A DNA stretch of 64,000 nt, from positions 864,001 to 928,000 of the forward strand of contig CAXXVS010000002.1 in the NCBI GenBank assembly GCA_963674755.2. Reading direction: 5' to 3'. Source of the DNA: Desulfobacterales bacterium. GTDB lineage: Bacteria > Desulfobacterota > Desulfobacteria > Desulfobacterales > UBA5852. The notes beneath the pieces were generated by a model. That model was given only the letters and a program-made list of their open reading frames with translations. It did not search any database and was not told the origin of the DNA. This document shows positions 42,977 to 59,558 of this stretch, in pieces (position 1 is the stretch's first letter; every line of letters starts with the position of its first letter). The position numbers and the translations under genes are program-made.

Positions 42977-43771
42977 ATGCCATCCAAAGGGAAAAAATAC
43001 TATGTCATTTCTTCGCTGGGAAAAGGTTTGCGGGTGTTGGAACTGCTGGCCGAACACGGCGAATTGGGTGTTTCGGCCGTGGCCGCCCATTTGGATACAA
43101 ATCGGGCCGGCTGCCATCGGTTTCTATTGAGTTTGAGAGACTTGGGTTATGTGGAGAAAACGGAGGAAGGGCGCTATAGGCTGACCTTTAAAGTCCTTGA
43201 ACTCGGCATGAAGAAGCTCGAACGTTTTGAAATACGACATACGGCCCATCCCATGATGCAGGAGCTTTCCCGCGCCTTCCGTGAGACCGTCAATCTGGGT
43301 TTCTGGGACGGGCACGCCATCGTTCATCTGGACAAAATCAATAGCACTGAAATTCTTCGCATGGATTCAGGGTTGGGCACCCTGGCACCGGCCTATTGCA
43401 CCGGGTTGGGCAAGGCGATTCTGGCATTTTTGCCGGAGGATGAAGTCGATATCTATCTTCAGACGATCGAGTTCGAACGACTAACACCGAATACCATCCA
43501 TTCGGCGGACACCTTCAAGAAAGCCCTTTACAGGATTCGTGAGAGAGGCTTTGCCGTTGACAACGAAGAACTCAGCATCGGATTGCGCTGCATTGGAGCT
43601 CCGGTTTTTGACTACACCGGAAGGGCTAGTTTTGCGCTCAGCATCTCCGGGCCTACGCACCGAATGTCGGACGAGCGCGTAGAGGCAATGTCCGAAATCC
43701 TACAAAGCGTCTGCCAGCGCTTGTCACAAAAAATCGGCAGCCCAGGCCAACAGGCCCCGGGTTTTGCCTAA
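42977..43771 (+). CDS. IclR-family transcriptional regulator
   Basis: SLGKGLRVLELL wHTH; ETVNL, CTGLGKAILA, GFAVDNEE and CIGAPV motifs. Confidence 0.92.
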   Translation: MPSKGKKYYVISSLGKGLRVLELLAEHGELGVSAVAAHLDTNRAGCHRFLLSLRDLGYVEKTEEGRYRLTFKVLELGMKKLERFEIRHTAHPMMQELSRAFRETVNLGFWDGHAIVHLDKINSTEILRMDSGLGTLAPAYCTGLGKAILAFLPEDEVDIYLQTIEFERLTPNTIHSADTFKKALYRIRERGFAVDNEELSIGLRCIGAPVFDYTGRASFALSISGPTHRMSDERVEAMSEILQSVCQRLSQKIGSPGQQAPGFA

Positions 43772-43791
43772 ACAGGGAGGAATCGAAACTC

Positions 43792-44634
43792 ATGGGGAAA
43801 AAACATACGCGGTTTGACTTGCAGAAGATGAAGGACGAGCGCCAACGGGCCGTATGGGTCACGGCCTATGACTATTGGACAGCCAGCTTTGCCGAACAGG
43901 CTGGGATGGACATGATTCTGGTGGGGGATTCCCTCGGGATGTGCATCTACGGTTACAGTGGAACGGTCCCGGTCACCATGGACCAGTGCATTTATCACAG
44001 CGAAGCGGTTCGCCGGGGAGCGTCCAACACGTTTGTGATCGGCGACATGCCTTTTCTCTCCTACCAGGTGAGCGTTCCGGAAGCGGTGCGCAACGCCGGC
44101 CGCTTTCACAAGGAAGCCGGGGTGGACGCCATCAAGCTTGAGGGCGGACAACGCGTCATTGGGCAGATCCGCGCCATTGCCGACGGCGGCATGCTGGTCA
44201 TGGGCCACATCGGACTGACCCCCCAGAGTTCGGGCATGCAGGGAGGCTTTAAAGCCCAAGGACGCACGGCCGAAGCCGCTAGGGACCTTATCGAAGACGC
44301 CGTGGCCATCGAGGCGGCGGGTGCCTTCGCCCTTTTGGTGGAGGCGGTACCGCCGGAAGTCTGCGGCATCATCCGTGACAAGTTGACGATTCCCGTCTAC
44401 AGCATCGGCGCCGGTTGGGAAGCGGACGGGCAGCTCATGATCTGCAGTGATGTGCTGGGCATATTCCAGGCCTTCACCCCCAAGTTCGTCAAGAAATACG
44501 AAAACCTGGGGAAAAAGACGGTCGAAGCCTTCCAGCAATACGTCCAAGATGCCCGTAGCGGCGAATTTCCCAAGGAAGAACATGCCTACAAGATGGTGAC
44601 GGGTGAGTTGGAGAAATTGAAACAAATGCTTTAA
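43792..44634 (+). CDS. panB: PanB-family (ketopantoate hydroxymethyltransferase-like) enzyme
   Basis: TAYD, LVGDSLG, GDMPF, KLEGG, GHIGLTPQ, SIGAG and PKFVK motifs. Confidence 0.8.
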   Translation: MGKKHTRFDLQKMKDERQRAVWVTAYDYWTASFAEQAGMDMILVGDSLGMCIYGYSGTVPVTMDQCIYHSEAVRRGASNTFVIGDMPFLSYQVSVPEAVRNAGRFHKEAGVDAIKLEGGQRVIGQIRAIADGGMLVMGHIGLTPQSSGMQGGFKAQGRTAEAARDLIEDAVAIEAAGAFALLVEAVPPEVCGIIRDKLTIPVYSIGAGWEADGQLMICSDVLGIFQAFTPKFVKKYENLGKKTVEAFQQYVQDARSGEFPKEEHAYKMVTGELEKLKQML

Positions 44635-44868
44635 CCGAAGGGGAAAGGTTAACATAGAAGGGCAACAAACGAAGATTTAGGATTTCGATAAAAACACCAG
44701 GATTACGGCATGCGGCCGTGATTAGAGAATTCAACAACAACGGTATGCATCGGCATACATTGAAAAACACATCAGCGTGTTCGCTCCCGAAATAAGGATT
44801 TTTGGTTTTGACAGGAAGGTCAGGAGCAGAAAAGCCATTTCCGGAGGGGCACATTACCGGAGGTCTTT

Positions 44869-45813
44869 ATGTCAGCAGTGCTTAAAACGATTCGTGATTT
44901 CATGGAAAAAGAAGGTATCCCCGGACGGGACGCCTATGATCTGCCCACATCGACCAAGTCCTTCCCGGACGGCGCCAGTTTCCGCATCGAAATCGCCGGC
45001 GTGGAGCGTGCCTCGACCATGGAGGCCATGATCGACGAGGCGCGCAAACGCAATGTGACTATTCACCGCTGCATCGCCGCGGTGGGCGGATCCACCTACT
45101 GCGATTTCGAGGAGCTCAAAGCCATGGCCCAGATGGCGCGCGACGAGAAGATCGAGATGATCATGACCGTTGGCCACCGCAAGGGCTGGGACGCGGGCTC
45201 CAAGGAGATCTCCACGGCGGAAGGCGCCATGCAGGGCTTTCGGCTGCGCGGATCGGACAACATCTCCTATCACATCGCTGACATCATGCGGAACATCGAC
45301 GCCGGCCATCGCGGTTTCCTGGTTTACGATGAAGGGGTGCTCTACATCCTGAACAAGATGCGGGCCGAGGGACTGATTCCGGCTGAGACCATCTTCAAGT
45401 TTTCGGTTTTTGGCGGGTACTGCAGCGCGGCCGGCGCCAAAGTGATCGAGTCCATGGGGGCCAACTCCATGAACCCCATCTCCGATGTGTCCCTGCCGAT
45501 TCTGGGCTCAATCCGGAAAGCCGCCGACCTGCCGCTGGATGTTTATCTCATCATCGTGGACTCATTCGGCGGCATGTTCCGGGCCTATGAAGCGCCCGAA
45601 ATCGCCCGGGTGGCCGCCCCCTGCTACTTCAAGTTCGAGCCGGGAACCTCGGAAGGCGACATCTACAAACCGTGGATTACCGAAGCCTTTCACGGCAACC
45701 TCATCCGCGAAAAAGTCAAGATTGCCTCCATCGTTATGGAGATCATGCAGAAGCACGCCCCGGATTTAAAGACTTCCGCAAAAGGGCCGGCGGACCTTGT
45801 TTTACCGCGATGA
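44869..45813 (+). CDS. Uncharacterised U32-like TIM-barrel protein
   Basis: DLPTS..FPDGASFRIEI, GFLVYDEG and PLDVY..GG motifs resemble proteins loosely annotated as U32 peptidase; function unknown. Confidence 0.55.
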   Translation: MSAVLKTIRDFMEKEGIPGRDAYDLPTSTKSFPDGASFRIEIAGVERASTMEAMIDEARKRNVTIHRCIAAVGGSTYCDFEELKAMAQMARDEKIEMIMTVGHRKGWDAGSKEISTAEGAMQGFRLRGSDNISYHIADIMRNIDAGHRGFLVYDEGVLYILNKMRAEGLIPAETIFKFSVFGGYCSAAGAKVIESMGANSMNPISDVSLPILGSIRKAADLPLDVYLIIVDSFGGMFRAYEAPEIARVAAPCYFKFEPGTSEGDIYKPWITEAFHGNLIREKVKIASIVMEIMQKHAPDLKTSAKGPADLVLPR

Positions 45814-45928
45814 CCGGAGCCAGCGGCTGATGGTTGAAGGTGCCATGCGATCCTGAGGACCGCGATCGTTACCCTTCGCCCTGCCCAAGAGGGAAAAAGA
45901 TACCGAATAGACCGTAAGGACAGCCCCT

Positions 45929-47104
45929 ATGACAACGATCGATAAACTAGCTCGACGCACCCACCAAGTGGAGTGGTCGGGAATTCGCATCATGTTCGCT
46001 ATGGCCGAACAAATCCCGGATGTCGTCAATCTGGGGATCGGTCAGCCCGACTTCGATACGCCGGCATTTATTCGCGAGGCCGCGAAAAAGGCTTTGGACG
46101 AGGGGTTTACCCGCTATCCGCCCGCCAAGGGCTTTGCGGATCTGCGCAAGGCCATCGCCCAAAAGCTCGCGGTCGAAAACGGCATCACGGCCGACCCCAA
46201 CGCCGAAATCTTCGTGGCCGTAGGGGCTATGCAGGTCATTTTCAACACCTGTCTGCACTTGCTCAACCCGGGCGATGAGGTGATCGTCATAGATCCAGGC
46301 TACGACTACTATTCCCAGATCCGGTTGTTCGGCGGGGTGCCTGTGCCGGTCAAGGTCTACGAGTCCAACCAGTTCAAGGTGGATCCGGCCGACATCGAGG
46401 CGGCCATCACCGAGAAGACCAAACTGATGATCATTAACACGCCCTCCAATCCCACCGGGGCACTCTTCGACGAAGAGATCCTCAAGACGATAGCCGACAT
46501 GGCCCAAGCCCGCGACATCTGGGTACTTTCGGACGAACCATACGAGCATATCCTTTTTGACGGGCACAACCATGTCAGCATCGGCGCTTTCGAGGGCATG
46601 GCCGAGCGCACCATTTCGGCCTTCACCCTTTCCAAATCCTATGCCATGACCGGCTGGCGGGTAGGCTACGCAGCCGCGCCTAAGGTGATCGTCGACGAGA
46701 TGGAAAAATTGATGGAGCATATGGTCTCCGGCGTGGCGGCCATGGCCCAGCGGGCTGCCTTGGCCGCCATCACTGCTCCCCAGGATTGCGTGCAGGAGAT
46801 GGTGGCCACCTACGACCAGCGGCGACAGCTCGTCTACGATGGACTCAACGCCATCGACGGCATCCGCTGCCTCAAGCCGGAATCGACCTTCTACGCTTTC
46901 CCGAACATCAAGGCCACCGGGCTCTCCTCCTGGGAATTTGCCAAATACCTGGTGCAAGAACACCGGGTGGCGGTGGTGCCGGGAAGCATTTTCGGTGAGG
47001 GTGGCGAAGGATACGTGCGCTTTTCCTTTGCCGCCGGAATGAATCAGCTCAAGGAGGGCATTGCCCGTATCGAGAGAGGGGTGGCAGGTTTGAAACGCCC
47101 ATGA
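45929..47104 (+). CDS. Class I/II PLP aminotransferase
   Basis: LGIGQPDF, NTPSNPTG, SDEPY and SKSYAMTGWRVG motifs. Confidence 0.92.
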   Translation: MTTIDKLARRTHQVEWSGIRIMFAMAEQIPDVVNLGIGQPDFDTPAFIREAAKKALDEGFTRYPPAKGFADLRKAIAQKLAVENGITADPNAEIFVAVGAMQVIFNTCLHLLNPGDEVIVIDPGYDYYSQIRLFGGVPVPVKVYESNQFKVDPADIEAAITEKTKLMIINTPSNPTGALFDEEILKTIADMAQARDIWVLSDEPYEHILFDGHNHVSIGAFEGMAERTISAFTLSKSYAMTGWRVGYAAAPKVIVDEMEKLMEHMVSGVAAMAQRAALAAITAPQDCVQEMVATYDQRRQLVYDGLNAIDGIRCLKPESTFYAFPNIKATGLSSWEFAKYLVQEHRVAVVPGSIFGEGGEGYVRFSFAAGMNQLKEGIARIERGVAGLKRP

Positions 47105-47149
47105 TCCGGAAACGCCTGTCCGGGCCTTTTTCTGAAGAGAGGAACGATC

Positions 47150-48322
47150 ATGCCGTTATTTCCCAAAGAAGAATATCTTGAACGGCTGCGCAAAACCAAG
47201 ACGCGCATGAGCGCGGCCGGCATCGATGTGCTGGTGGTGTCCGATCCGGCCAACATGAACTACCTAACCGGCTATGACGGTTGGTCCTTTTATGTGCCCC
47301 AGTGCGTGGTGGTCGGACTGGATGCCGATCTTCCCCTGTGGATCGGGCGGGGGATGGACGTGGCCGGCGCCCGTCACACCACTTTTTTACCCGAAGGCAA
47401 CATTGTCGGGTATCCGGACCATTACGTGCAGACCCTGGAGCGCCATCCCCTCAACTTTGTGGGGGATCGGATCAGGGATCGCGGCTGGGGAAACAAAACC
47501 GTGGGCGTGGAAATGGATGCCTATTATTTTTCAGCCCGCTCCTACGCCGAACTCCAGAAGCATCTACCCGACGCCCAATTCGCCAATGCCGACCTTTTGG
47601 TGAACTGGATTCGGTTGGTCAAGTCCGACGGAGAGATCGCCCTGATGAAAGAGGCCGGCAAGATTGCCGAGCGAGTTATGCAGACCGCCATCGACCGGCT
47701 TGAGCCGGGCGTGCGGGAGTGCGATGCCGTGGCTGCCGTCTACCAGGCCCAGATGTCCGGCACGCCGGATTTCGGAGGCGATTACCCCGCCATTGTCCCT
47801 ATGATGCCAACCGGCGAGAAGACATCGGCGCCGCACCTGACCTGGACCGACGCTCCCTACCAGAGCGAACAGATGGTCAACCTGGAACTGGCGGCCTGCC
47901 GCCATCGGTATCATTGCCCCATAGCTCGAACCGCTTATCTGGGGAAAAACCCGCCGGCCAAACTGGTGGAATTGGCCAATCACACCGTGGAAGGACTTGA
48001 CATCACGCTGGGGGCCATCAAACCGGGAATGCGGGCCGAGGAGGTGGAGCTGGTATGGCGCAACCATATCGCCAAGGCCGGTCTCGAGAAGGAATCCCGC
48101 ATCGGCTACGCCATGGGGCTGAACTACCCACCGGATTGGGGGGAGCACACCGCCAGTCTGCGCCCGGGGGATCAGACCGTGCTGGCGCCCAACATGACCT
48201 TTCATATGATTCTGGGCATGTGGATGGACGACTACGGATTCGAGTGCAGCGAGTCGCTGCGGCTGACGGAGACGGGCTGTGAAACCTTTGCCGACTTTCC
48301 GCGCAAGCTGTTTGTCAAATGA
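47150..48322 (+). CDS. eutD: Ectoine hydrolase EutD/DoeA (M24 fold)
   Basis: TGYDGWSFYV, GYPDHYVQTLERHP, GGDYPAIVP, APHLTW and YPPDWGE..SLRPGD signatures. Confidence 0.82.
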   Translation: MPLFPKEEYLERLRKTKTRMSAAGIDVLVVSDPANMNYLTGYDGWSFYVPQCVVVGLDADLPLWIGRGMDVAGARHTTFLPEGNIVGYPDHYVQTLERHPLNFVGDRIRDRGWGNKTVGVEMDAYYFSARSYAELQKHLPDAQFANADLLVNWIRLVKSDGEIALMKEAGKIAERVMQTAIDRLEPGVRECDAVAAVYQAQMSGTPDFGGDYPAIVPMMPTGEKTSAPHLTWTDAPYQSEQMVNLELAACRHRYHCPIARTAYLGKNPPAKLVELANHTVEGLDITLGAIKPGMRAEEVELVWRNHIAKAGLEKESRIGYAMGLNYPPDWGEHTASLRPGDQTVLAPNMTFHMILGMWMDDYGFECSESLRLTETGCETFADFPRKLFVK

Positions 48323-48378
48323 GGCGCGAGAAAAACGGTACCGGACGGAAAGAAACTTAAACCGAGAGGCTATGCACA

Positions 48379-49110
48379 TTGATTTACCGCACACGCCAAG
48401 GACAAGTGAGCAGCGGGGAGGCCATCGGCATCCTTTTGCTCGACACGGCGGTACCTTTCATCCCGGGGGATGTGGCCAATGCCACAACGTATAACTTTCC
48501 GGTGCGATTTAGGAAGGTAGAGGGATTCTCGGTAGCGCGGGCCATTGGCAAGGATCCCACGATATACGAGGTTCTCAAGGCGGCAGCCGAGGAACTGGTC
48601 GAACAGGGCGTGCGGGCCGTGACCGGGGATTGCGGATTTATGGCGTTGCACCAGGCACGCCTGGCGGATGAATTGGGGGTTCCCGTATTTTTGTCGAGCC
48701 TGCTGCAGATTCCGTTCATACTGAATATCCTCGGGAAAAGGGCCAAAGTTGGCGTGATTACGGCCGACAGCCGCAGTCTGGATGCCGGCCTTCTGGCGGT
48801 GGTGGGTGTCGGCGAGCCTGACCGCTTGGTCATCGAAGGACTGGAGGACCGCGAGGCCTTCTTCCGGTTCGCCATCGAGGAGACCGGTCTGCTCGATGCG
48901 GCGGAGGTGAAAGCCGAGGTGATCGAGGCCGGCCGACATATCGTGGCGCGCGATGATGCCGTGGGGGCGTTCCTGCTGGAGTGCAGTCTCTTGCCCCCCT
49001 ATGCCGCCGCCCTGCAGGAAAGGCTTCAAATGCCCGTGTTCGACTATATCACCATGATCAACCATGTTTTTTCAGCCGTCGTCCAACGACCTTACAACGG
49101 CTATCTCTAA
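48379..49110 (+). CDS. Asp/Glu racemase-superfamily protein
   Basis: FIPGDVANATTY, TGDCGF, SSLLQ and LECSLLPPY two-Cys motifs; TTG start. Confidence 0.75.
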   Translation: MIYRTRQGQVSSGEAIGILLLDTAVPFIPGDVANATTYNFPVRFRKVEGFSVARAIGKDPTIYEVLKAAAEELVEQGVRAVTGDCGFMALHQARLADELGVPVFLSSLLQIPFILNILGKRAKVGVITADSRSLDAGLLAVVGVGEPDRLVIEGLEDREAFFRFAIEETGLLDAAEVKAEVIEAGRHIVARDDAVGAFLLECSLLPPYAAALQERLQMPVFDYITMINHVFSAVVQRPYNGYL

Positions 49111-49151
49111 ACAAAAAGGGGCGCTGGATACCGAAGGAGACCGGTTACACA

Positions 49152-50363
49152 ATGGACGACCTTAAGCACCTATCCGAACAGATCGCGCAATATCACGACG
49201 AACTGATCGCGCTGCGACGGGACTTCCATCAGCATCCCGAGCTGGGCTTCCAGGAATTTCGCACCGCCGACCGGATCGAAGCTTATTTGAAGGCGATCGG
49301 CTTGACGCCCTGTCGCATGGCCGGCACCGGGGTCGTGGCCTGTCTCGAGGGCGCGTACCCCGGTCCTGTGGTGATGCTCAGGGCGGACATGGACGCCCTG
49401 CCGGTCAGAGAGGCAAACGCGATCTCCTACAAATCGCAGAATCCCGGCGTGATGCACGCCTGCGGGCATGATGCCCACATGGCCATGCTGCTGGTGGCAG
49501 CCAAGGTGCTGGCGCAAAACAAACAGGATATTCCCGGAACGATCAAGTTCGTTTTCCAACCCAACGAAGAGATCGCCGGCGCCCTGCCGATGATCGAGGA
49601 GGGGGTTCTCGAAAATCCCAAGGTCGATGCCGTCATGGGGCTGCATGTCTGGACCCCGGTGCCATCCGGCAGGATCGGCATCACGGCTGGACCGGTCATG
49701 GGGGGATTGGATGTCTTCAAAATGACCATTTCCGGCAAGGGGGGCCATACCGGGGTACCCGAGGACGCGGTGGATCCCATCCTGGCGGCCGCCAATCTGA
49801 TTCAAACGGTGCAGATGGTCCAGACCCGGGAGATCAGCAACCTGAAGTCCACCATCATCATGTTCGGCCGGATTGCCGGGGGCACCAAAAGCAACATCAT
49901 CCCCGACAAGGTCGATCTGGAAGGATCGATCCGGTTTCTCTACCAAGGGGGGCCGGACAGTGAGGAACAGCCCACGGAACGGTTTCTGCGCGTTGCCGAA
50001 AGCGTCAGCCGGACCCATCGCTGCCAATGTGGCATCGAGATCATCCACGAGAACATTCCCCTGATCAACGACCCCGGCATGGTGGCGCTGGCCCGCGCGG
50101 CGGCGGCAGAGGTCTTCGGCGACAAAAACGCTGTGGTCGACAATCAGACGATTGCCAGCGAGGACTTTTCCGAGTTCAGCACGCGGGTCCCGGGCGTATT
50201 TATGTTTCTGGGGGCCGGCAACGCCGAGAAAGGCACGGCCTTTCCCCATCACAATCCGCGTTTCAACGTCGATGAAGATGTCCTGTTAAGCGGTGTCGCC
50301 ATGCACGTGCAAGGCGCCTTGCATTATTTGACCCGGATTTCAGAAGAAGGAGGTGAACGATAG
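49152..50363 (+). CDS. M20 family amidohydrolase (N-acyl amino acid deacylase type)
   Basis: HPELGFQE, RADMDALP, MHACGHDAH, FQPNEE, SEDFS and HHNPRF motifs. Confidence 0.9.
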   Translation: MDDLKHLSEQIAQYHDELIALRRDFHQHPELGFQEFRTADRIEAYLKAIGLTPCRMAGTGVVACLEGAYPGPVVMLRADMDALPVREANAISYKSQNPGVMHACGHDAHMAMLLVAAKVLAQNKQDIPGTIKFVFQPNEEIAGALPMIEEGVLENPKVDAVMGLHVWTPVPSGRIGITAGPVMGGLDVFKMTISGKGGHTGVPEDAVDPILAAANLIQTVQMVQTREISNLKSTIIMFGRIAGGTKSNIIPDKVDLEGSIRFLYQGGPDSEEQPTERFLRVAESVSRTHRCQCGIEIIHENIPLINDPGMVALARAAAAEVFGDKNAVVDNQTIASEDFSEFSTRVPGVFMFLGAGNAEKGTAFPHHNPRFNVDEDVLLSGVAMHVQGALHYLTRISEEGGER

Positions 50364-50438
50364 CGGCAACCCTAACCTAAATGATCACTCAACAGCCCAA
50401 GGCTCGCCCGACGAGCTGTTTACGAAAGGAGCCCCACC

Positions 50439-51488
50439 ATGAAGAAATCCATCCTGCTATTGACGACCATTTTGGTCCTCACGTTTTTCGGCACCGCCAT
50501 GGCCGCTAATTACAACGGTCCGGCCATCAATGCCAAGCTGGCCTCGGAAGAGATCGAAGGCGACTTCATGACAGTCTGGGCGCGGAATTTTTCCGACCAC
50601 ATGAAAGAATGGTCAGGCGGCAAGATCAATATCGAAGTCTATCCCTACGGCACCCTGGGAGCCACCGGCGACATCAACGAGTTGGCCCAGATGGGCGTGG
50701 TGGAGTTCGTTTTTTCCGACCATGCCTGGATCAGCTCCTTTGTGCCCCAGGCCCAGGCCCTGGCTCTGAACTACATCTTCCCCACCGAAAAAGTGCCCGA
50801 GGTGCTCGGCTGGATGGCCCAAAACGGTAAATTTCTGCCGCTTCTGGAAGACGCCTTCCGTAAAAACGGCTTGGTACCCCTGTCCATCATGTTCGAGGGT
50901 TGGCAGTGGGTCACCTCCAAGAAGCCGATTACTTCCCTGGCCGACATGAAAGGCCTTAAGCTCCGTCTGATGTCCTCCAAGCTGCTGGTGGAAGACTACA
51001 AGGCCTACGGGGCCAGCCCCACGCCCATGAGCTACGGCGAAGTCTACAGCGGCCTGCAGATGGGTCTGATCGATGCGCAGGTCAACCCCCTGTTCGCCAT
51101 CTATTCCATGAAGTTCTATGAAGTACAGGATTACCTTACCCAGCTCAAGAGCGAGCCGTTTATCGGGATTCCCACGGTGAACGAGGATTTTTTTAACAGC
51201 CTGCCCAAGGAAGTTCAGGATGAGATGCGCAAATTCTGGATCGACGCCATCGTGCCGGCCGGAAACTGGATCACCAAACGCAATGCCGAGGATATGGAAA
51301 AGATGAAGGCGGCCAAGCCGTCGCTCAAGTTCGAGGTCCTGGACAATGCCACCATCGCCAAGTTTAAGGCCCGGGCCGAAACGGTCTACCCGGAATATAC
51401 TAAAATTGGCGGTGACGGGGCCCAGGCTATTCTGGACGCCCTGTTGAAAGACATCGCGAATGCGAAAAAGGCCCTGAATATCAAATAG
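50439..51488 (+). CDS. TRAP substrate-binding protein DctP (TeaA/UehA-like)
   Basis: Signal peptide; EEIEGD, YGTLG, EGWQW, RLMSS and NPLFAI..KFYEVQ motifs. Confidence 0.85.
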   Translation: MKKSILLLTTILVLTFFGTAMAANYNGPAINAKLASEEIEGDFMTVWARNFSDHMKEWSGGKINIEVYPYGTLGATGDINELAQMGVVEFVFSDHAWISSFVPQAQALALNYIFPTEKVPEVLGWMAQNGKFLPLLEDAFRKNGLVPLSIMFEGWQWVTSKKPITSLADMKGLKLRLMSSKLLVEDYKAYGASPTPMSYGEVYSGLQMGLIDAQVNPLFAIYSMKFYEVQDYLTQLKSEPFIGIPTVNEDFFNSLPKEVQDEMRKFWIDAIVPAGNWITKRNAEDMEKMKAAKPSLKFEVLDNATIAKFKARAETVYPEYTKIGGDGAQAILDALLKDIANAKKALNIK

Positions 51489-51499
51489 GGAAAGAGCGA

Positions 51500-51526
51500 T
51501 CTGCCGCGGCCTTGCGCCGCGGCAGA
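51500..51526 (+). other. Stable intercistronic hairpin after dctP
   Basis: Perfect 11-bp stem TCTGCCGCGGC/GCCGCGGCAGA with no U tract; likely an mRNA stabiliser. Confidence 0.55.
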
Positions 51527-51560
51527 ACCTGCTTGTTTACCGCAGCCCGAAGGCAAGCTC

Positions 51561-52145
51561 ATGAAAACAGACAATGAACCTCCGGTGAACCCCAGCGCTC
51601 TGCGCCGTTTCAACCGGGGCGTCGGCAAGGTCATCAACGCGGTGGAAGTCTCCATTCTGGTGTTCTGCGTGGCGGCCCTGGGGGTGCTCTTGATCACGGA
51701 AGTGGTGGCGCGCACCTTTTTCCAGAGCATCTATTTCGCCGAAGAAATCTCCATGTTTCTCGTGATGCTGACGACTTTTGCCGGCGTGAGCTACGGCGTG
51801 CGCAAAGCCCGGCACATCCGTATGGGCGCCTTCCTGGACATGATGCCGCCTAAAATGGAAAAGACCTTCATCATTATCATATCGCTGATCAGTGCCGTGG
51901 TAATGGGGATCATGGCCTATTTTTCCTTCGAATACCTGATGAACGCCATGTCCCGGGGCCATATGAGCCCGGCCCTGCGGGTCCCCAAGTGGATCTTTTA
52001 TGTGATCGTACCGGTGGGCTTCGGCCTTGCCAGTATCCAGTACATCCGCACGATCATTAAAAACATCATCGAGAAGGAGCCCTGGCAGAGCCCGGACCAG
52101 CAGAGCGAATACGAAGATGAAGAGATCGGGGGGGCCTCGCTATGA
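51561..52145 (+). CDS. TRAP small permease DctQ (TeaB/UehB-like)
   Basis: Four TM helices; FAEEIS and RKARHIRM motifs. Confidence 0.88.
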   Translation: MKTDNEPPVNPSALRRFNRGVGKVINAVEVSILVFCVAALGVLLITEVVARTFFQSIYFAEEISMFLVMLTTFAGVSYGVRKARHIRMGAFLDMMPPKMEKTFIIIISLISAVVMGIMAYFSFEYLMNAMSRGHMSPALRVPKWIFYVIVPVGFGLASIQYIRTIIKNIIEKEPWQSPDQQSEYEDEEIGGASL

Positions 52146-53428
52146 CACTATTCGGCATCAGTCTGGCCAGTATGCTTTTGATCGGGTTCCCCTTCATGGT
52201 GACCCTGCTGGGATCCCTGATTCTCTATGTCTATGTTTATATGCCGGGCATGGCACCTAAACTGGTGACGACCATGGTGCAGCAGGTGATCACTGGTGTG
52301 ACGCCGCCGGCTCTGGTATGCGTGCCCATGTTCATCCTCTCGGCCAGTATCATAACCTCCGGCAAATCCGCCCGGCGGCTGATCGAGATGATCAAGGCTT
52401 TCGTGGGCCACCTGCCCGGGGGACTACCCATTACCACCAATGCCAGTTGCACCCTCTTCGGGGCGGTCTCCGGTTCCACCCAGGCCACCGTGGCCGCCAT
52501 CGGCGGTACCATGCGCCCCATGCTGCTGGAAGCCGGCTATCCCAGCTCCTTTACCCTGGGATTGATTATCAATTCCAGCGACATCGCTTTTCTGATTCCC
52601 CCCAGCATCGGCTTCATCGTCTACGGCGTGGCGACCAGCACTTCCATCGGAATGCTGTTTCTGGCCGGGGTCTTCCCGGGCCTGATGATCCTGATTATGT
52701 TTTCCACCTACTGCTTCATCTATTCCAAGATCAAAAAGGTGGGGGTTCTTCCCCGCGCGAACTGGTCCCAACGGTGGAAGGCCGTCCGCCAGGGGCTGCC
52801 GGTCATGGGGTTTCCGGTCATTATTGTGGGCGGCATCTACGCGGGCTACCTCAGTCCCACGGAGGCGGCGGCGGTATCCGTGGCTTACGCCCTGTTTCTG
52901 GAGACCGTCGTCTACAGAAGCATTACCTTTGAGCGGATCGTGGACGCCTTTCTGCAGACCGGCGTCATCACCGGCGTGGTGTTCATCCTCGTGGGAGCCG
53001 GACAGGCCTTCTCCTGGATGATCGGTTTCATGCAGATCCCCCAGCAAATCCTGCCTCCGTTGTTCGGCGCCGACCCTTCCGTCTTGCGGGTGATCGTCAT
53101 CGTGGTTTGCGTGTACTTCGTGGCCTGCATGTTCGTGGACCCCATCGTGGCCATCTTCATCCTGAGCCCCATTTTCCAGCCCTATGTCCTGAGCTCCGGC
53201 GTGGATCCGATTTTGCTGGGGACCCTCGTGACCCTGCAGGCGGCCATCGGTTCCGCCACGCCCCCCTTTGGATGCGACATCTTCACCGCCCAGCTGATCT
53301 TCAGACGACCCTATGTCGAGGTCATCGGACATGCCCTGCCGTTTATCCTGATCCTGATCCTGGCGACCGTCATCCTGGTCGTCTTTCCCCAGATCACGCT
53401 GTTTTTGCCGCAGTTGGCCATGGGATAG
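52142..53428 (+). CDS. TRAP large permease DctM (TeaC/UehC-like)
   Basis: GAVSGSTQAT, IPPSI, SPTEAAA and TPPFGCDIF motifs. Confidence 0.92.
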   Translation: MTLFGISLASMLLIGFPFMVTLLGSLILYVYVYMPGMAPKLVTTMVQQVITGVTPPALVCVPMFILSASIITSGKSARRLIEMIKAFVGHLPGGLPITTNASCTLFGAVSGSTQATVAAIGGTMRPMLLEAGYPSSFTLGLIINSSDIAFLIPPSIGFIVYGVATSTSIGMLFLAGVFPGLMILIMFSTYCFIYSKIKKVGVLPRANWSQRWKAVRQGLPVMGFPVIIVGGIYAGYLSPTEAAAVSVAYALFLETVVYRSITFERIVDAFLQTGVITGVVFILVGAGQAFSWMIGFMQIPQQILPPLFGADPSVLRVIVIVVCVYFVACMFVDPIVAIFILSPIFQPYVLSSGVDPILLGTLVTLQAAIGSATPPFGCDIFTAQLIFRRPYVEVIGHALPFILILILATVILVVFPQITLFLPQLAMG

Positions 53429-53672
53429 TGAATTGGCCGTGCCGGGTCCGCGACATTAATGCGGATTAAAGACGAGACTCAGCGATTAAGAGAGGGATGT
53501 GAAGAAGGAAAAAGGGTAAAAAGCGGCATTGAAAAGGAAAAGGGGACCGGCTGACCGACATTGTCCGTTTTCCCAGTGCCGCTATCCGTTTGTTTGACGT
53601 TTTGAATGACAACTGGAATGCCTAAATCGCCTACCGGTCATTCGCCTGTGGGTGATCGCATGAGGAAATCCT

Positions 53673-54683
53673 ATGGCAAAAAATCATGCCACCCAACAGA
53701 TGCCGACGCTGCATGACACCTATCTGGCCCAACGCCGCATCCAGCCTTTGATCTGGGAAACCCCGCTTAGGGAATGCCGCGAACTGGCCGAGCGAACCGG
53801 AGCCCGAAGCGTACACTTCAAACTGGAATGCCTGCAGCATACGGGCGCCTTCAAGGTGCGGGGGGCCGCCAACAAGATCCTTGGCCTAACGGATGAGGCT
53901 CGGCAAAAAGGCGTGGCCACCTTTTCAACGGGTAACCACGGCAAAGCGGTGGCTTTTGTGGCGGAAAGGAGCGGCATCCCGGCCGTGGTCTGCCTTTCCG
54001 AGCACGTGCCCGTCTACCGGGCGGATATGATCCGCGCCCTGGGGGCCGAGTTGTCCATCAAAGGCCAATCCCAGGACGAAGCCGAGGCCAACTACCATCG
54101 GCTCGTCGCGGAGCGGGGACTCGTTCCGGTGGTCCCTTTCGACGATCCTGCCATCATTGCCGGACAGGGCACCATCGCGCTGGAGATCCTGAAGACGCTT
54201 CCCGACACGGACATCCTTATCATCCAACTGTCCGGCGGCGGCCTGCTGGCCGGCATCGCCATGGTGGCCAAATCCATCAATCCTGCTATTCGGGTTGTGG
54301 GGGTCTCCCTGGAACGATCCCCGGCCATGCTGAAAAGCATCGAGGCCGGACGGCCGGTACAAGTGGAAGAGATGGACACCATCGCCGATTCGCTTCTGGG
54401 GGGTATCGGCAGGGATAACCACTACACGCTGCCCCTGGTGAGGCGCTTCGTGGACCACCATTTGGTCGTTGCCGAAGATCCTATTAAGGACGCCATGGTT
54501 TATCTCTTTGACCGGCATCGGCTAATTGCCGAGGGCGCCGCCGCTGTCGGGGTGGCCGTGCTGCTCCACGGAATGCTGAATGTAACCGGTCAGCGGGTCG
54601 TTACCTTGCTGTCGGGCAGCACCATCGATTCAGAGGTCTATCTCCAAGTCCTGCAAGAGAGGAGCAAGGCTTCGCCGATTTGA
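53673..54683 (+). CDS. eutB: Hydroxyectoine-utilisation dehydratase EutB-like (Thr dehydratase family, no ACT)
   Basis: GAFKVRGA, STGNHG, LSGGGL and ADSLLGGIGRDN motifs characteristic of EutB. Confidence 0.72.
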   Translation: MAKNHATQQMPTLHDTYLAQRRIQPLIWETPLRECRELAERTGARSVHFKLECLQHTGAFKVRGAANKILGLTDEARQKGVATFSTGNHGKAVAFVAERSGIPAVVCLSEHVPVYRADMIRALGAELSIKGQSQDEAEANYHRLVAERGLVPVVPFDDPAIIAGQGTIALEILKTLPDTDILIIQLSGGGLLAGIAMVAKSINPAIRVVGVSLERSPAMLKSIEAGRPVQVEEMDTIADSLLGGIGRDNHYTLPLVRRFVDHHLVVAEDPIKDAMVYLFDRHRLIAEGAAAVGVAVLLHGMLNVTGQRVVTLLSGSTIDSEVYLQVLQERSKASPI

Positions 54684-54712
54684 TAGTTGCAGGGTATGAA
54701 AGGGGGAACACC

Positions 54713-55750
54713 GTGAGATGGAAAACGACTATCCTGGCGACCGTGTTTGCCGGAACGCTCATCTTCGGGACCACCACGCAGGCTCTGGCTGTTAAGCGCT
54801 TATGGCAGATTGCGCTCGAGGAGATCGAGGGCAGTATGCAATTTGCATATGCCCAAAAATTTGTCAATGTTATCGAGACCAACACCGGCGCGGAGATTCG
54901 CTGCGAAATTCATCCTTATGGCGAACTCGGCACTTCGGGAGATATCACCCGGCTCCTGCAAAACGGCGATCTTCAGTTTGCGTTTCAATCACCCGGTCAT
55001 TTGGGTGCCATTATTCCCGAGGTGCAGGTTTTCTCCATTCATTATCTCTTCCCGACGGATTCCAAACAACTTGAACGGATGCTTCGTCATGGGCCTCAAA
55101 CCCGGCGCACGCTTGGGAAATATTACCGCCAAAACCGCCTGGAATTGCTATCCATCATCGCAGAGGGCTGGCAGATCTGGACGGCCGACAAACCCATCCG
55201 TTCGCCCGCCGATTTTAAGGGCGTCACTTTTAGGGTCATGTCCTCACCGCTGCTGATAACCGCTTATCGCCTTTATGGCGCCTATGCGATCACCGTGCCT
55301 TATTCGGAGATTTACACTGATCTTGAACTGGGGCGCATCGATGCCGAAACGCAGCCTTTTTTTGCCATCCAGGAAATGAAGTTCTATGAAGTCCAGGATT
55401 ACATGATCAATGCCCGGCAGCTGCCCTTTATTGCCACCTTTGTTGCCAACCGTGATTTCATGGACGGCCTGCCCGAAGAAATCCGTCAAACGATTCAGGA
55501 AGCCGTCGAGACGTCCAACGACTTCATTTTCGATCTGGAGGCGCGGATGAATGCCGAGCGGTATCAAATGATCATGAAGACCAAGCCCTCCATGCAATAT
55601 ATAGAACTGACCAAGCAAGAGATCGATGTTTTCCGGTCCAAAGCAAAACCCCTGCGCCAAAAATATTTGAAAATGGGAGGCACGGGGGCGCAGGAGGTGC
55701 TGGATGCGGTCCTAAAGGACAAGGCCTGGGCGGAGCAGCAGGGGAATTAA
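54713..55750 (+). CDS. Second TRAP substrate-binding protein (TeaA/UehA-like)
   Basis: ALEEIEGSMQFAYA, SPGHLG, EGWQIW, RVMSS and PFFAIQEMKFYEVQ motifs; GTG start. Confidence 0.82.
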   Translation: MRWKTTILATVFAGTLIFGTTTQALAVKRLWQIALEEIEGSMQFAYAQKFVNVIETNTGAEIRCEIHPYGELGTSGDITRLLQNGDLQFAFQSPGHLGAIIPEVQVFSIHYLFPTDSKQLERMLRHGPQTRRTLGKYYRQNRLELLSIIAEGWQIWTADKPIRSPADFKGVTFRVMSSPLLITAYRLYGAYAITVPYSEIYTDLELGRIDAETQPFFAIQEMKFYEVQDYMINARQLPFIATFVANRDFMDGLPEEIRQTIQEAVETSNDFIFDLEARMNAERYQMIMKTKPSMQYIELTKQEIDVFRSKAKPLRQKYLKMGGTGAQEVLDAVLKDKAWAEQQGN

Positions 55751-55818
55751 CACTTTCGGAAACATCTCACCAAGCTGTTAAAGAAGAGTGCCATTTACTT
55801 CACATAGAGGATGATCAT

Positions 55819-57000
55819 ATGAATAAAAATCCTTTGTTTACATTGGATATTTATCAACAGCGGGTGCGCGATGTCAAAGCGCGTATGGACCATGCGGGAA
55901 TGGAACTCCTGCTCGTGATGGATCCGGCCAACATGAATTACCTGAGCGGTTACGACGGCTGGTCCTTCTACGTGCACCAGGGTCTGGTGGTCGATTTGAA
56001 TGCCGAATGCCCCTTCTGGTTCGGCCGGGAGCAGGATTCCAACGGGGCACGGCTGACATCATGGCTTCCGGAAGAGGCCATCTACGGATATCCGGACCAT
56101 TATGTCCAATCCCGCTACACCCACACCATGCGCTATTTGGCCGACCTCCTGCGGGAGAAGGGGCTGGATCGGAAACGCCTCGGTCTGGAGATGGACGGCT
56201 ACTGGTTCAATGCCCGCATGTATCTGACCCTTCAGGAAGAACTGCCCCGGGCGCACCTGATGGATGCCACCCACTTGGTCAACTGGGTGAAAACCGTGAA
56301 ATCACCCGAGGAGATTGCCGTCATGCGCGAGGCGGCCCGTATCTGCGAGGAGGTCATGGGAACCGCCGTCGAGGAGATCGAGGTGGGCGTTTGGGAGAAG
56401 GATGTGGCCGCCAAGGTGTGCGCCGCCCAAATCGCCGGAACGGAGACCTTTGGGGGGTCTTCGCCGGCCATCTTCCCGATCATGCCCTCGGCCGAACGGA
56501 CTTCGACGGCGCATCTCACTTTCGATCCGGACCGGCGCTACCAGAAAAACGACGTGGTGCTGCTGGAGTTGAGCGGCGTCCGGCACCGCTACCATGCCCC
56601 TCTTTCACGTACGGTTTACTTGGGCGATCCTCCCGAAGACCTGCGCCGCACCGCCGAAGCGGTGATCGAAGGGCTCCAGAAGACGCTATCCTATATGGGG
56701 CCCGGGGTGACGGCGGAGGAGGTGGAGGCCTGCTGGCGTGAGGCGATTGCCCATACCGGCCTGGTCAAGCCCTCGCGGGTCGGATACTCTTACGGACTCA
56801 ACTATGTGCCGGACTGGGGCGAGCATACGGTAAGTCTGCGGCCTGGGGACAAAACGGTTCTCAAAGCGGGTATGACCCTTCATTTCATGCCGGGCATCTG
56901 GCTGGACGACTACGGATTCGAATGTAGCGAACCCGTCTTGATTAACGAGAGCGGATGCGAAAAATTTATCGAATTCCCTCAGGAACTGGTGATCAAATAA
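55819..57000 (+). CDS. Second EutD/DoeA-like hydrolase
   Basis: SGYDGWSFYVHQ, GYPDHYVQS and PDWGEHTVSLRPGD motifs; paralog of 47150-48322. Confidence 0.8.
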   Translation: MNKNPLFTLDIYQQRVRDVKARMDHAGMELLLVMDPANMNYLSGYDGWSFYVHQGLVVDLNAECPFWFGREQDSNGARLTSWLPEEAIYGYPDHYVQSRYTHTMRYLADLLREKGLDRKRLGLEMDGYWFNARMYLTLQEELPRAHLMDATHLVNWVKTVKSPEEIAVMREAARICEEVMGTAVEEIEVGVWEKDVAAKVCAAQIAGTETFGGSSPAIFPIMPSAERTSTAHLTFDPDRRYQKNDVVLLELSGVRHRYHAPLSRTVYLGDPPEDLRRTAEAVIEGLQKTLSYMGPGVTAEEVEACWREAIAHTGLVKPSRVGYSYGLNYVPDWGEHTVSLRPGDKTVLKAGMTLHFMPGIWLDDYGFECSEPVLINESGCEKFIEFPQELVIK

Positions 57001-57015
57001 AAAAAGGAAGCCTTC

Positions 57016-57393
57016 ATGGATAAAGAGGTTATCTACACGGCAGAAGCCCCTGAGCCCGGCCCCTATTCCCAGGCTATTCGTTACGGCAACCTCATTTTCG
57101 TGGCTGGTCAGACATCGGAAGATCCCGAGACCAGCTGTCCAGTGCACGGCTCCGTTACAGTCCAGACCGAGCGGATTATGCGAAATATCGAAACCATCTT
57201 GAAGGCCGCCGGCACCGGGCTTGAAAAGATTCTGCGGGTGGATGTCTACCTGAGCTCGTTGGCCTTCAAGCCGGAGTTCAACGCGGCCTACGCCCAATTT
57301 TTTGCAGGTGCTCCCCCGGTGCGCAATTGCGTGGCCGTAGCGGGGATTGATGATGGCCTGGATGTGGAGATTGAGGTCATCGCGGGGGTATAA
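57016..57393 (+). CDS. RidA-family enamine/imine deaminase
   Basis: GPYSQA, VAGQ, FNAAY, PPVRNCV and VEIEVIA motifs. Confidence 0.88.
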   Translation: MDKEVIYTAEAPEPGPYSQAIRYGNLIFVAGQTSEDPETSCPVHGSVTVQTERIMRNIETILKAAGTGLEKILRVDVYLSSLAFKPEFNAAYAQFFAGAPPVRNCVAVAGIDDGLDVEIEVIAGV

Positions 57394-57831: not shown

Positions 57832-58629
57832 ATGGATCTGGCAACCATCATCGGGCTGATCGGCGGCACAGGATTGATCGTCACTTCCATTGTGTTGGGG
57901 GGAAGCGCCTCTGTTTTTTTCAATGTGCCGAGCCTTCTGATTGTCGTTGGGGGAACCTTTGCGACGTCTTTTATAAAATTTACCCTGTCGGATGTTTTCA
58001 ATTCCATCCAGGTCGGCATGAAGGCCTTTCTTGTCAAAGTGGAACCGCCCGAGGACATCATCCAGACCATGATCGGTTATGCCAAAATGGCCAAAAAGGA
58101 GGGGCTTATCTCTCTGGACCAGGAAAACCCCAAGGACCCCTTTATGGCCAAAGCCCTTCGCTATTTATCGGATGGTTACGATGAGCACCTGATCGAGGAA
58201 ATGCTCAACAAGGACATCCGCATGACGGTGACACGCCACACCACCGGCCAAAATGTTTTCAAGGGCATGGGGGACTCGGCACCGGCTTTCGGCATGATCG
58301 GCACCCTGATCGGCCTGGTGCAGATGCTGAGCAGCATGAGTGATCCGGCAAGCATCGGACCTTCCATGGCGGTGGCTCTGCTGACAACCCTTTACGGTGC
58401 CTTGGTTGCCAATTTCATCTGTTTGCCTCTGGCGGACAAGCTTGCCTTGCGGAGTCAGCAGGAACAGCAGACCAAGTCCATCATACGGGAAGCGGCTGTG
58501 GGCATCAACCAGGCCCTTTCACCCATGGTGTTGGAAGAATCCCTGAAAATTTACCTTGCCCCTACGGGACGCAAGAAGAAAGATAAAAAAGTCGACGAAG
58601 AGAGCGAACCTGTCAAGGAAGCCGCCTGA
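57832..58629 (+). CDS. motA: Flagellar stator A subunit (PomA/MotP-like)
   Basis: MDLATIIG, APAFGMIGTLIGLV and GPSMAVALLTTLYG motifs. Confidence 0.9.
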   Translation: MDLATIIGLIGGTGLIVTSIVLGGSASVFFNVPSLLIVVGGTFATSFIKFTLSDVFNSIQVGMKAFLVKVEPPEDIIQTMIGYAKMAKKEGLISLDQENPKDPFMAKALRYLSDGYDEHLIEEMLNKDIRMTVTRHTTGQNVFKGMGDSAPAFGMIGTLIGLVQMLSSMSDPASIGPSMAVALLTTLYGALVANFICLPLADKLALRSQQEQQTKSIIREAAVGINQALSPMVLEESLKIYLAPTGRKKKDKKVDEESEPVKEAA

Positions 58630-58631
58630 TC

Positions 58632-59453: not shown

Positions 59454-59558
59454 TGTCGTGCCGCCTGTGTCTATATCGGCAGGCGGCATCGGTGCCGTCA
59501 TGTTCAACCATGCCTAATTGTGTTACGATTGATCTGATGCGACCTGACAAAAATTCCT

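What the first reader, a model, noticed from the sequence alone, without database searches (positions are those of the whole stretch)
42977..57393. Non-canonical (hydroxy)ectoine degradation pathway in an anaerobe
Seen: TeaABC/UehABC-like TRAP, two EutD/DoeA hydrolases, EutB-like dehydratase, racemase-family protein and RidA. Known: the aerobic route continues with EutE/DoeB deacetylase, class III DABA transaminase Atf/DoeD, a semialdehyde dehydrogenase and EutC; none of these is in the cluster. Present instead are an M20 amidohydrolase, a class I aminotransferase, a PanB-like enzyme and a U32-like protein. Inference: ring opening, M20 deacetylation releasing acetate, alpha- rather than gamma-transamination of (hydroxy)DABA, RidA replacing EutC for the enamine made by EutB, then C-C cleavage. 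This would be an alternative compatible-solute catabolic route in sediments.
Basis: partly seen in the sequence, partly recalled or inferred. Interest (0 to 1): 0.85.

Follow-up and report, generated by a model that had tools for sequence, protein, structure and literature searches.

The report
Sulfate-reducer route for ectoine breakdown
A sulfate-reducing bacterium carries 14 genes that most likely import the salt-protectant ectoine and break it down by a route different from the known aerobic one, probably ending in pyruvate plus a folate-bound one-carbon unit; the cluster type was noted in print in 2026, but its chemistry is untested.

Summary
The 14-gene cluster is real and lies in a dsrA-positive, Wood-Ljungdahl genome with no EutE, Atf, Ssd or EutC ortholog. 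The cluster type (two eutD, no eutE/ssd) was already reported for Thermodesulfobacteriota (PMC13188858), with no mechanism in the text read.

- The slot after the U32-like gene holds a class I aminotransferase (41 clusters) or a remodelled GDH-family dehydrogenase (29), never both. In one EutD-free locus a 2-hydroxyacid dehydrogenase fills it. So the slot makes a 2-oxo acid: alpha-, not gamma-, oxidation.
- RidA and EutC are mutually exclusive beside EutB (13 vs 15 loci, 0 both).
- The PanB paralog is a separate clade with a narrowed pocket, and once sits beside Fhs and FolD.
- The U32-like protein is a TIM barrel without conserved cysteines whose distant relatives occupy aldolase-like positions.

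Best model: ectoine to DABA, alpha-oxidation, then cleavage to pyruvate, methylene-THF and ammonia (about 0.45). No step is shown biochemically. Cultured strains carry the cluster, so it is directly testable.

The parts
42977..43771 (+). IclR-family regulator (in place of EnuR)
   Evidence: Pfam IclR_C and HTH_IclR; in 68 of 71 clusters with enough upstream DNA
43792..44634 (+). Catabolic PanB paralog; proposed C1 transfer from a 4-substituted 2-oxobutanoate to THF, giving pyruvate
   Evidence: Over panB cut-off; one of three PanB copies in the genome; clade separate from presumed housekeeping copies, catalytic residues kept, I at E. coli V214 in 82 of 82 vs V in 28 of 28
44869..45813 (+). Orphan TIM-barrel protein, distant U32 fold without conserved Cys; proposed 2-oxo-acid lyase or aldolase
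   Evidence: No family hit; 31 of 70 homologs weakly hit PF01136; AF2 pLDDT 95; fold hits to class II aldolases, CutC and U32 Mk0906; conserved E41, R67, R141, D154, K177, S179, D224, R238, K255, no conserved Cys
45929..47104 (+). Class I aminotransferase; proposed alpha-transamination of DABA or N-gamma-acetyl-DABA
   Evidence: PF00155; closest PDB entries are archaeal aromatic/aspartate aminotransferases; replaced by a GDH-family enzyme in 29 of 70 clusters
47150..48322 (+). EutD/DoeA-like hydrolase 1 (core); ectoine ring opening
   Evidence: E 1.8e-125 to 6TWK; TIGR02993 514.9 of 613
48379..49110 (+). Asp/Glu-racemase-family protein (PRK07475), not EutA; role open
   Evidence: no hit to canonical EutA; no PDB relative; in 65 of 73 clusters
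49152..50363 (+). M20D amidohydrolase; proposed N-alpha-acetyl-DABA deacetylase
   Evidence: TIGR01891 over cut-off, DoeB2 model 287.5 of 550; PDB relatives include N-acyl-amino-acid hydrolases; in 68 of 73 clusters
50439..53428 (+). TRAP transporter DctP-DctQ-DctM of the TeaABC/UehABC group
   Evidence: top PDB hits UehA and TeaA; slot filled by a UehA-close binding protein in 15 loci or by EhuBCDA in one cluster
53673..54683 (+). EutB-like PLP dehydratase; proposed beta-elimination on hydroxy-DABA
   Evidence: PRK07476 396.7 of 413; 47-49% to annotated EutB
54680..55750 (+). Second TeaA-group binding protein (start codon uncertain)
   Evidence: travels with EutB
55819..57000 (+). EutD-like hydrolase 2; accessory, probably the hydroxyectoine branch
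   Evidence: E 1.8e-103 to 6TWK; second EutD in 0 of 11 clusters without EutB and 9 of 13 with EutB by the script filter
57016..57393 (+). RidA enamine/imine deaminase
   Evidence: TIGR00004 over cut-off; alternates with an EutC-like cyclodeaminase

Best explanation
An anaerobic ectoine/hydroxyectoine catabolic operon built from three modules. (1) Upper module: TRAP uptake; EutD1 opens the ring to N-acetyl-DABA (homology-supported); the M20 enzyme removes acetate from the N-alpha isomer (inferred). (2) Accessory hydroxyectoine module: DctP2 and EutD2; EutB dehydrates hydroxy-DABA to an enamine, which RidA hydrolyses to 4-amino-2-oxobutanoate (inferred; EutC-type clusters would reduce it to DABA instead). 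(3) Lower module: the aminotransferase (or a GDH-family dehydrogenase in relatives) oxidises the alpha-carbon of DABA to 4-amino-2-oxobutanoate (well supported by slot swaps). The orphan TIM barrel and the PanB paralog then split C3 from C4, giving pyruvate, ammonia and 5,10-methylene-THF (inferred). Most likely the barrel removes the 4-amino group or cleaves the Mannich base, and the PanB paralog puts the C1 on THF. Acetate, pyruvate and methylene-THF all feed the Wood-Ljungdahl pathway. No step is shown biochemically.
For: [quoted passage not shown] Alpha-oxidation: aminotransferase in 41, GDH family in 29, both in 0, of 71 clusters; 6 state changes on a quick tree, at least 2 forced; the 36 GDH-like proteins keep the alpha-deamination lysines and aspartate but have a rebuilt side-chain pocket; an FAD 2-hydroxyacid dehydrogenase follows the barrel in G205 and lies in the L118 operon. 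No EutE over cut-off in 37 of 37 relatives, and Atf-like (59% or more) in only 2 of 37. G041 lacks the barrel and the second PanB but has Atf (66%) and an aldehyde dehydrogenase near M20. C1 product: Fhs-FolD-PanB-barrel-IclR-formate channel in L118; host has Fhs, FolD, acetyl-CoA synthase and DsrA; E. coli PanB works as a 2-oxo-acid/formaldehyde aldolase, and I202, I212 and V214 variants change its substrate range (PMC7610986 passages). Barrel: in 34 of 37 EutD-positive and 2 of 263 EutD-negative relatives at 73% or more; distant homologs sit with lactonase plus sugar-acid dehydratase, KDG kinase, or CMP-sugar genes.
Against: No enzyme assay, growth or expression data. EutD, EutB and DoeB2 scores are below curated cut-offs. 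Both binding proteins are only about 35% like TeaA and have Ala at TeaA W188; DctP2 also has Gln at N184 (roles recalled). The lower module occurs without EutD (0 of 5 such genomes have it; the nearest relative L061 has only the four-gene module), so its substrate is not tied to ectoine. PanB is missing from 3 of 70 barrel-bearing clusters and M20 from 5 of 73. The GDH-like pocket has Arg where GDH has Lys89, which suits a neutral or acidic side chain better than free DABA (inference). The barrel's fold hits are generic (Z 12-15). The Fhs/FolD link rests on one locus. The genome has 17 class III aminotransferase matches that could do a gamma step, and G113 has both an Atf-like gene (59%) and the alpha module.
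Confidence: 0.45

Rival explanations
1. Same operon and end products, but alpha-oxidation acts on N-gamma-acetyl-DABA, the second EutD product, giving 4-acetamido-2-oxobutanoate, which the barrel cleaves or deacylates. The M20 enzyme handles only the alpha isomer or acts later.
For: H. elongata DoeA makes alpha and gamma isomers 2:1 and the gamma form is not a DoeB substrate (PMC5924519 section 8.4); R. pomeroyi accumulates gamma-ADABA (PMC8739950 passages). The GDH-like pocket is enlarged (Gly and Ala for Ala163 and Val377) and carries Arg plus Asp/Asn. 5 of 73 clusters lack M20.
Against: M20 is kept in 68 of 73 clusters. The RidA branch yields the free 4-amino acid. The lower module also serves EutD-free loci.
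Confidence: 0.15
2. Ectoine is degraded to DABA here but finished by the classical gamma route using unlinked class III aminotransferase and aldehyde dehydrogenase paralogs. The PanB-barrel-aminotransferase module is a co-regulated passenger for another C4 substrate such as homoserine or 2,4-dihydroxybutyrate.
For: Module found without EutD; many class III aminotransferases and aldehyde dehydrogenases in the genome; G113 holds both systems.
Against: 70 of 71 EutD clusters carry the barrel and an alpha-oxidising enzyme directly upstream; Atf-like genes in only 2 of 37 relatives; own best match 37%; no DABA aminotransferase over cut-off.
Confidence: 0.13
3. Alpha-oxidation occurs, but the carbon chain stays intact: the barrel eliminates ammonia to 2-oxo-3-butenoate, which is reduced to 2-oxobutyrate and enters propionyl-CoA metabolism; the PanB paralog is a side valve for hydrated product.
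For: Barrel-bearing clusters without PanB exist (3 of 70); three clusters carry an FAD/Fe-S reductase pair (L024, L087, L090); beta-amino ketones eliminate readily (general chemistry).
Against: PanB in 67 of 71 clusters, with 77-90% identity in most; no reductase in most clusters; Fhs/FolD linkage in L118.
Confidence: 0.1
4. A PLP gamma-lyase (PRK08249 family) converts DABA to homoserine or 2-oxobutyrate; the aminotransferase then acts on homoserine and PanB cleaves 4-hydroxy-2-oxobutanoate.
For: This family flanks some Desulfobacteraceae clusters and sits in the Priestia eut cluster; the host has an unlinked 74% copy.
Against: Only 9 of 37 EutD-positive relatives have it, and 16 of 263 others do; the host copy has no ectoine-related neighbours in view.
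Confidence: 0.05
5. The operon degrades a different cyclic amidine or N-acetyl-diamino acid, not ectoine.
For: Sub-cut-off scores; divergent binding pockets; IclR instead of EnuR.
Against: EhuBCDA over cut-off and UehA-close proteins (E 4e-89) occupy the same slot; EutB, EutC and EutA-like genes recur.
Confidence: 0.1

Closest known systems
Putative ectoine clusters of Thermodesulfobacteriota, e.g. Desulfospira joergensenii (Boas Lichty et al. 2026, PMC13188858)
   Same: 9-13 co-oriented genes, usually two eutD, no eutE or ssd; D. joergensenii (their Fig. 1D) has the same IclR-PanB-barrel-aminotransferase-EutD-M20-TRAP-EutB-EutD order (L126).
   Different: The text read gives no pathway and treats the extra genes as unknown; the terms panB, U32 and hydroxymethyltransferase were not found in its 2 supplement files, and M20 and RidA were not found in its main text. 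Figures could not be seen; the Fig. 6 legend lists atf, so the class I aminotransferase may have been labelled Atf.
[quoted passage not shown]
   Same: EutD ring opening, TeaA/UehA-type uptake, EutB dehydratase, a racemase-superfamily gene.
   Different: No EutE, Atf, Ssd, EutA, EnuR or AsnC orthologs; alpha- instead of gamma-oxidation inferred; predicted products pyruvate and C1 instead of aspartate.
Methanotroph doeBDAC (Reshetnikov et al. 2020, PMC7192451) and NCBIfam DoeB2
   Same: A deacetylase only 22% like DoeB whose mutant accumulates N-alpha-acetyl-DABA; the DoeB2 model scores on this M20 protein. Linking the model to that paper is my inference.
   Different: Score 287.5 vs cut-off 550, so not an ortholog; methanotrophs keep DoeD and DoeC.
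Ketopantoate hydroxymethyltransferase PanB and its promiscuous formaldehyde aldolase activity
   Same: All catalytic residues kept; PanB partly served as 4-hydroxy-2-oxobutanoate aldolase in P. putida (bioRxiv 2025.02.17.638773 passages).
   Different: Separate clade with changed pocket residues; proposed to run in the cleavage direction on a non-branched 2-oxo acid.
U32 family (UbiU/UbiV, RlhA, Mk0906)
   Same: TIM barrel; weak PF01136 hits in 31 of 70 homologs; Mk0906 among top fold hits.
   Different: No conserved cysteines, so no 4Fe-4S hydroxylase chemistry. One Cys-free U32 subfamily is mentioned in bioRxiv 587956; membership in it was not tested.

Membership tests
Canonical ectoine catabolism (eut/doe) | EutD/DoeA hydrolase | tested here: met
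   51% and 45% to annotated DoeA, only close PDB relative 6TWK, key residues kept; below the equivalog cut-off
Canonical ectoine catabolism (eut/doe) | EutE/DoeB deacetylase | tested here: not met
   Best 25% and 42 bits in own genome; over cut-off in 0 of 37 relatives
Canonical ectoine catabolism (eut/doe) | Class III Atf/DoeD and Ssd/DoeC | tested here: not met
   Best 37% and 39% in own genome, unlinked; the same query finds 66% and 59% orthologs in 2 of 37 relatives
Canonical ectoine catabolism (eut/doe) | Ectoine-binding transporter | tested here: inconclusive
   TeaA/UehA group, most pocket residues kept, W188 replaced; binding cannot be measured here
Canonical ectoine catabolism (eut/doe) | Growth on, or induction by, ectoine | not testable with these tools
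   Needs cultures; no RNA run listed
Thermodesulfobacteriota putative ectoine cluster (PMC13188858) | Co-oriented 9-13 gene run, two eutD, no eutE or ssd | tested here: met
   14 genes counting the regulator; same order as D. joergensenii
Housekeeping PanB | Mg and catalytic residues | tested here: met
   82 of 82 cluster proteins
Housekeeping PanB | Same clade and ketoisovalerate pocket (V214, I/V212, H216) | tested here: not met
   Separate clade, FastTree support 0.92; I, L and S/A instead. 'Housekeeping' means best PF02548 hits under 55% identity; pan operon context was not checked
U32 Fe-S hydroxylases | Four conserved cysteines binding 4Fe-4S | tested here: not met
   No Cys column conserved in 70 rows
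2-oxo-acid aldolases (class I or II) | Barrel with Schiff-base Lys or metal site and aldol activity | tested here: inconclusive
   Barrel with conserved K177, K255 and acidic residues; generic fold hits
Glutamate dehydrogenase (relatives' slot gene) | Glutamate side-chain pocket K89/S380 | tested here: not met
   Arg and Cys in 36 of 36; catalytic Lys, Lys and Asp kept (numbering recalled)
DoeB2 deacetylase | NF038260 cut-off 550 | tested here: not met
   287.5 bits

The most novel reading that the evidence does not exclude
Sediment sulfate reducers degrade ectoine anaerobically through an undescribed C3 + C1 cleavage: a new DABA (or acetyl-DABA) alpha-dehydrogenase or transaminase, a new lyase family of U32 fold, and a catabolic PanB clade that loads the C1 unit on tetrahydrofolate. 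The same portable module also serves 2-hydroxy-acid substrates, making it a general natural route from 4-substituted 2-oxobutanoates into the Wood-Ljungdahl pathway, the reverse of the engineered homoserine cycle.
Probability: 0.4. Interest if true: 0.8.

Novelty: new variant of a known kind. Interest (0 to 1): 0.6.

Why it matters
Ectoines are abundant osmolytes whose breakdown is worked out only in aerobes and facultative species. About one in eight sampled genomes of this class carries the cluster (38 of 301), so it could be a significant carbon and nitrogen sink in anoxic saline sediments. It predicts three new enzyme activities: an alpha-dehydrogenase for a diamino acid, a function for a large orphan U32-fold family (1999 relatives), and a catabolic PanB clade. 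The RidA/EutC swap also bears on what EutB and EutC do in the canonical pathway, which the papers read call uncertain. Four cultured strains carry it (Desulfosarcina widdelii PP31, D. alkanivorans PL12, Desulfofustis glycolicus DSM 9705, Desulfospira joergensenii DSM 10085).

Tried and rejected
- PanB as vitamin B5 synthesis: rejected; a separate presumed housekeeping copy exists in the host and most relatives.
- Barrel as Fe-S U32 hydroxylase or protease: rejected; no conserved Cys.
- Racemase-family gene as EutA: no similarity to EutA.
- PRK08249 gamma-lyase as an obligatory step: only 9 of 37 relatives.
- Complex prediction of PanB paralog with the barrel: no answer (score 0.00), neither for nor against.
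- Promoter scan at chance level (6 vs 8.5 expected); terminator-like sites 26 vs 18 +/- 4, not interpreted.
- Fold searches singled out no family.
- Mais et al. 2020 is not held and its residue numbers were not found in the library, so those roles are recalled.
- Residue conservation of EutD, DctP, M20, racemase, EutB and aminotransferase across homologs was not computed; residue statements for these rest on the window proteins alone.
- Literature searches for the proposed intermediates or enzymes found nothing relevant (0 papers; listings only, none on this pathway). Subscription journals are not covered.
- The ectC search had no positive control.
Full report
OBSERVATION. The host has DsrA, acetyl-CoA synthase, Fhs and FolD, so it is a sulfate reducer with the Wood-Ljungdahl pathway; named relatives are Thermodesulfobacteriota. 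Against a complete annotated canonical cluster (Phyllobacterium), the 97% complete genome has EutD (51%, 45%) and EutB (47%) only in this operon. Best matches elsewhere are Atf 37%, Ssd 39%, EutE 25%, and none for EutA or EutC. Family searches agree.

PRIOR ART. PMC13188858 (abstract, introduction, section 8, part 1 of section 9, term passages and a supplement search read; figures not visible) reports Thermodesulfobacteriota clusters of 9-13 genes, usually with two eutD and lacking eutE and ssd, and calls them tentative. Its example D. joergensenii has this gene order (L126). So the cluster type is known; a mechanism was not found in the text read or (listings only). PMC7192451 (abstract, part 2 of 5, discussion) shows a divergent deacetylase in methanotrophs. 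Two earlier scan reports on other genomes reached the same filing.

DISTRIBUTION. EutD1 relatives occur in 38 of 301 genomes of the class and in 0 of 4 of the same genus. The orphan barrel at 73% identity or more is in 34 of the 37 EutD-positive relatives and in 2 of 263 others. Two misses (G140, G270) have contigs that begin inside the cluster. The third, G041, has an Atf ortholog (66%) on another contig, an aldehyde dehydrogenase near M20 and a single PanB. Kin are not independent, so these are descriptions, not statistics.

SUBSTRATE. Both hydrolases have DoeA as their only close solved relative and keep Y52, H238, E255 and R326 (roles recalled from Mais 2020, not held). The transporter slot holds the window type in 62 loci, another type in 15 loci (the one tested is much closer to UehA/TeaA, E 4e-89), and EhuBCDA over curated cut-offs in one cluster (duplicates not removed). 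Against: the window's binding proteins are only about 35% like TeaA and replace W188. I put ectoines as substrate at about 0.85-0.9.

ALPHA-OXIDATION. Of 81 distinct clusters, 71 had enough upstream DNA: 70 carry the barrel, 67 the PanB paralog, and 70 either the class I aminotransferase (41) or a Glu/Leu/Phe/Val dehydrogenase (29), never both. On a quick tree of 95 barrels the label changes 6 times, at least 2 forced by strong branches; 3 rows with no such neighbour were left out. All 36 dehydrogenases keep the alpha-deamination residues but differ from GDH at five side-chain pocket positions. In G205 the slot holds an FAD/Fe-S 2-hydroxyacid dehydrogenase with a tricarboxylate-type transporter, and a 53% identical enzyme is in the L118 operon. 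Three unrelated enzymes whose shared product is a 2-oxo acid make alpha-oxidation the best reading. Whether the amino substrate is DABA or its gamma-acetyl form is open; the enlarged, Arg-bearing pocket leans to the latter.

HYDROXYECTOINE BRANCH. Among 50 distinct EutB loci, 13 have RidA, 15 an EutC-like cyclodeaminase, none both, and 22 neither, mostly because the locus is cut. Among the 13 with 9 kb or more downstream the split is 8, 4, 0 and 1. A second EutD is in 0 of 11 EutB-free clusters and 9 of 13 EutB clusters by the script filter; searches show it in two more. RidA would hydrolyse the EutB enamine straight to 4-amino-2-oxobutanoate, converging on the lower module; EutC would reduce it (inference from family chemistry).

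LOWER MODULE. The PanB paralog keeps every catalytic residue but forms its own clade, with Ile for E. coli V214 (82 of 82 vs Val in 28 of 28 presumed housekeeping copies) and Leu for I212. Variants at these positions change the substrate range of E. coli PanB, which also acts as a formaldehyde aldolase (PMC7610986 and PMC10127515 passages). A narrower pocket fits a pyruvate rather than a ketoisovalerate fragment (inference). In a Syntrophobacter genome the pair sits directly after Fhs and FolD and before a formate channel, pointing to methylene-THF; this is one locus. The 314-aa protein folds as a confident TIM barrel with generic hits to class II aldolases, CutC and U32 and no conserved cysteine, unlike Fe-S U32 hydroxylases (bioRxiv 587956 passages). 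Distant homologs lie with a metallo-hydrolase or lactonase plus an enolase-family dehydratase, with KDG kinase, with IlvD, or with CMP-sugar genes, positions typical of 2-keto-acid aldolases. The module is portable: 0 of 5 tested genomes with the barrel and aminotransferase but no neighbouring EutD have EutD elsewhere (draft genomes), and 4 of 5 genomes whose barrel lacks an adjacent PanB have a 63-69% paralog elsewhere.

MODEL AND VERDICT. Ectoine gives acetate and DABA; DABA gives 4-amino-2-oxobutanoate; this gives pyruvate, methylene-THF and ammonia. Shown: gene content, absences, swaps, residue patterns, fold. Inferred: every reaction, most weakly the division of labour between barrel and PanB. 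Rough odds: substrate 0.87, alpha route 0.8, C3 + C1 cleavage 0.65, so about 0.45. It works like ectoine catabolism in its upper half but fails the canonical membership tests for EutE, Atf and Ssd. New variant of a known kind; interest 0.6, lowered from 0.85 because the cluster type is in print, and held up by the specific, testable new chemistry and the available cultured strains.

Noticed in passing
G000:C3:2759000-2770000 (L058): Second catabolic-type PanB (73%) with a tricarboxylate-type transporter, Zn dehydrogenase, glycerate 2-kinase, ferredoxin and an MtrA-like protein; fits tetronate breakdown to hydroxypyruvate plus methylene-THF (inference).
   Followed up: partly
L118:1024-14052: Syntrophobacter operon: 2-hydroxyacid dehydrogenase, DHDPS-like, Fhs, FolD, PanB paralog, barrel, IclR, formate channel; possible 2,4-dihydroxybutyrate pathway.
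   Followed up: partly
L192:7974-9230, L193:10499-11791, L194:3913-5178: A roughly 420-aa protein recurs directly beside 62-66% PanB paralogs, with an aminotransferase or FAD oxidase nearby; the one scanned has no Pfam hit.
   Followed up: no
L186:7923-13356 and L058:11058-12448: A ferredoxin plus a roughly 210-aa orphan gene pair recurs beside the barrel or the PanB paralog.
   Followed up: no
L181 (Priestia megaterium plasmid NZ_CP009919): eut cluster with a cystathionine gamma-synthase family gene where Atf is expected, plus M20, homoserine dehydrogenase and aldehyde dehydrogenase; possibly a third DABA route.
   Followed up: partly
L182 (Haloferax volcanii pHV3): eutD beside gdhB, amidohydrolase, threonine dehydratase, class III aminotransferase and BCCT; its GdhB keeps the normal glutamate pocket.
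   Followed up: partly
L081, L087, L089: Clusters fused with extra M24 hydrolases and, in L087, trimethylamine-methyltransferase family genes: a wider osmolyte island.
   Followed up: no
L178 (Enterobacter plasmid NZ_CP097174): Distant barrel homolog in an apparent small-molecule biosynthetic cluster with aminotransferase, oxidoreductase and iron redox enzyme.
   Followed up: no
G000:C3:1753000-1760200 (L059): Third TeaA-group TRAP system with ArgE-type deacylase, alanine racemase and glutaminase.
   Followed up: no
L069: The Olavius worm symbiont Delta 1 carries the cluster.
   Followed up: no
window 57832-63027: PomA/MotB-like stator pair, then a 398-aa orphan and a Lon-C domain AAA protein.
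   Followed up: no
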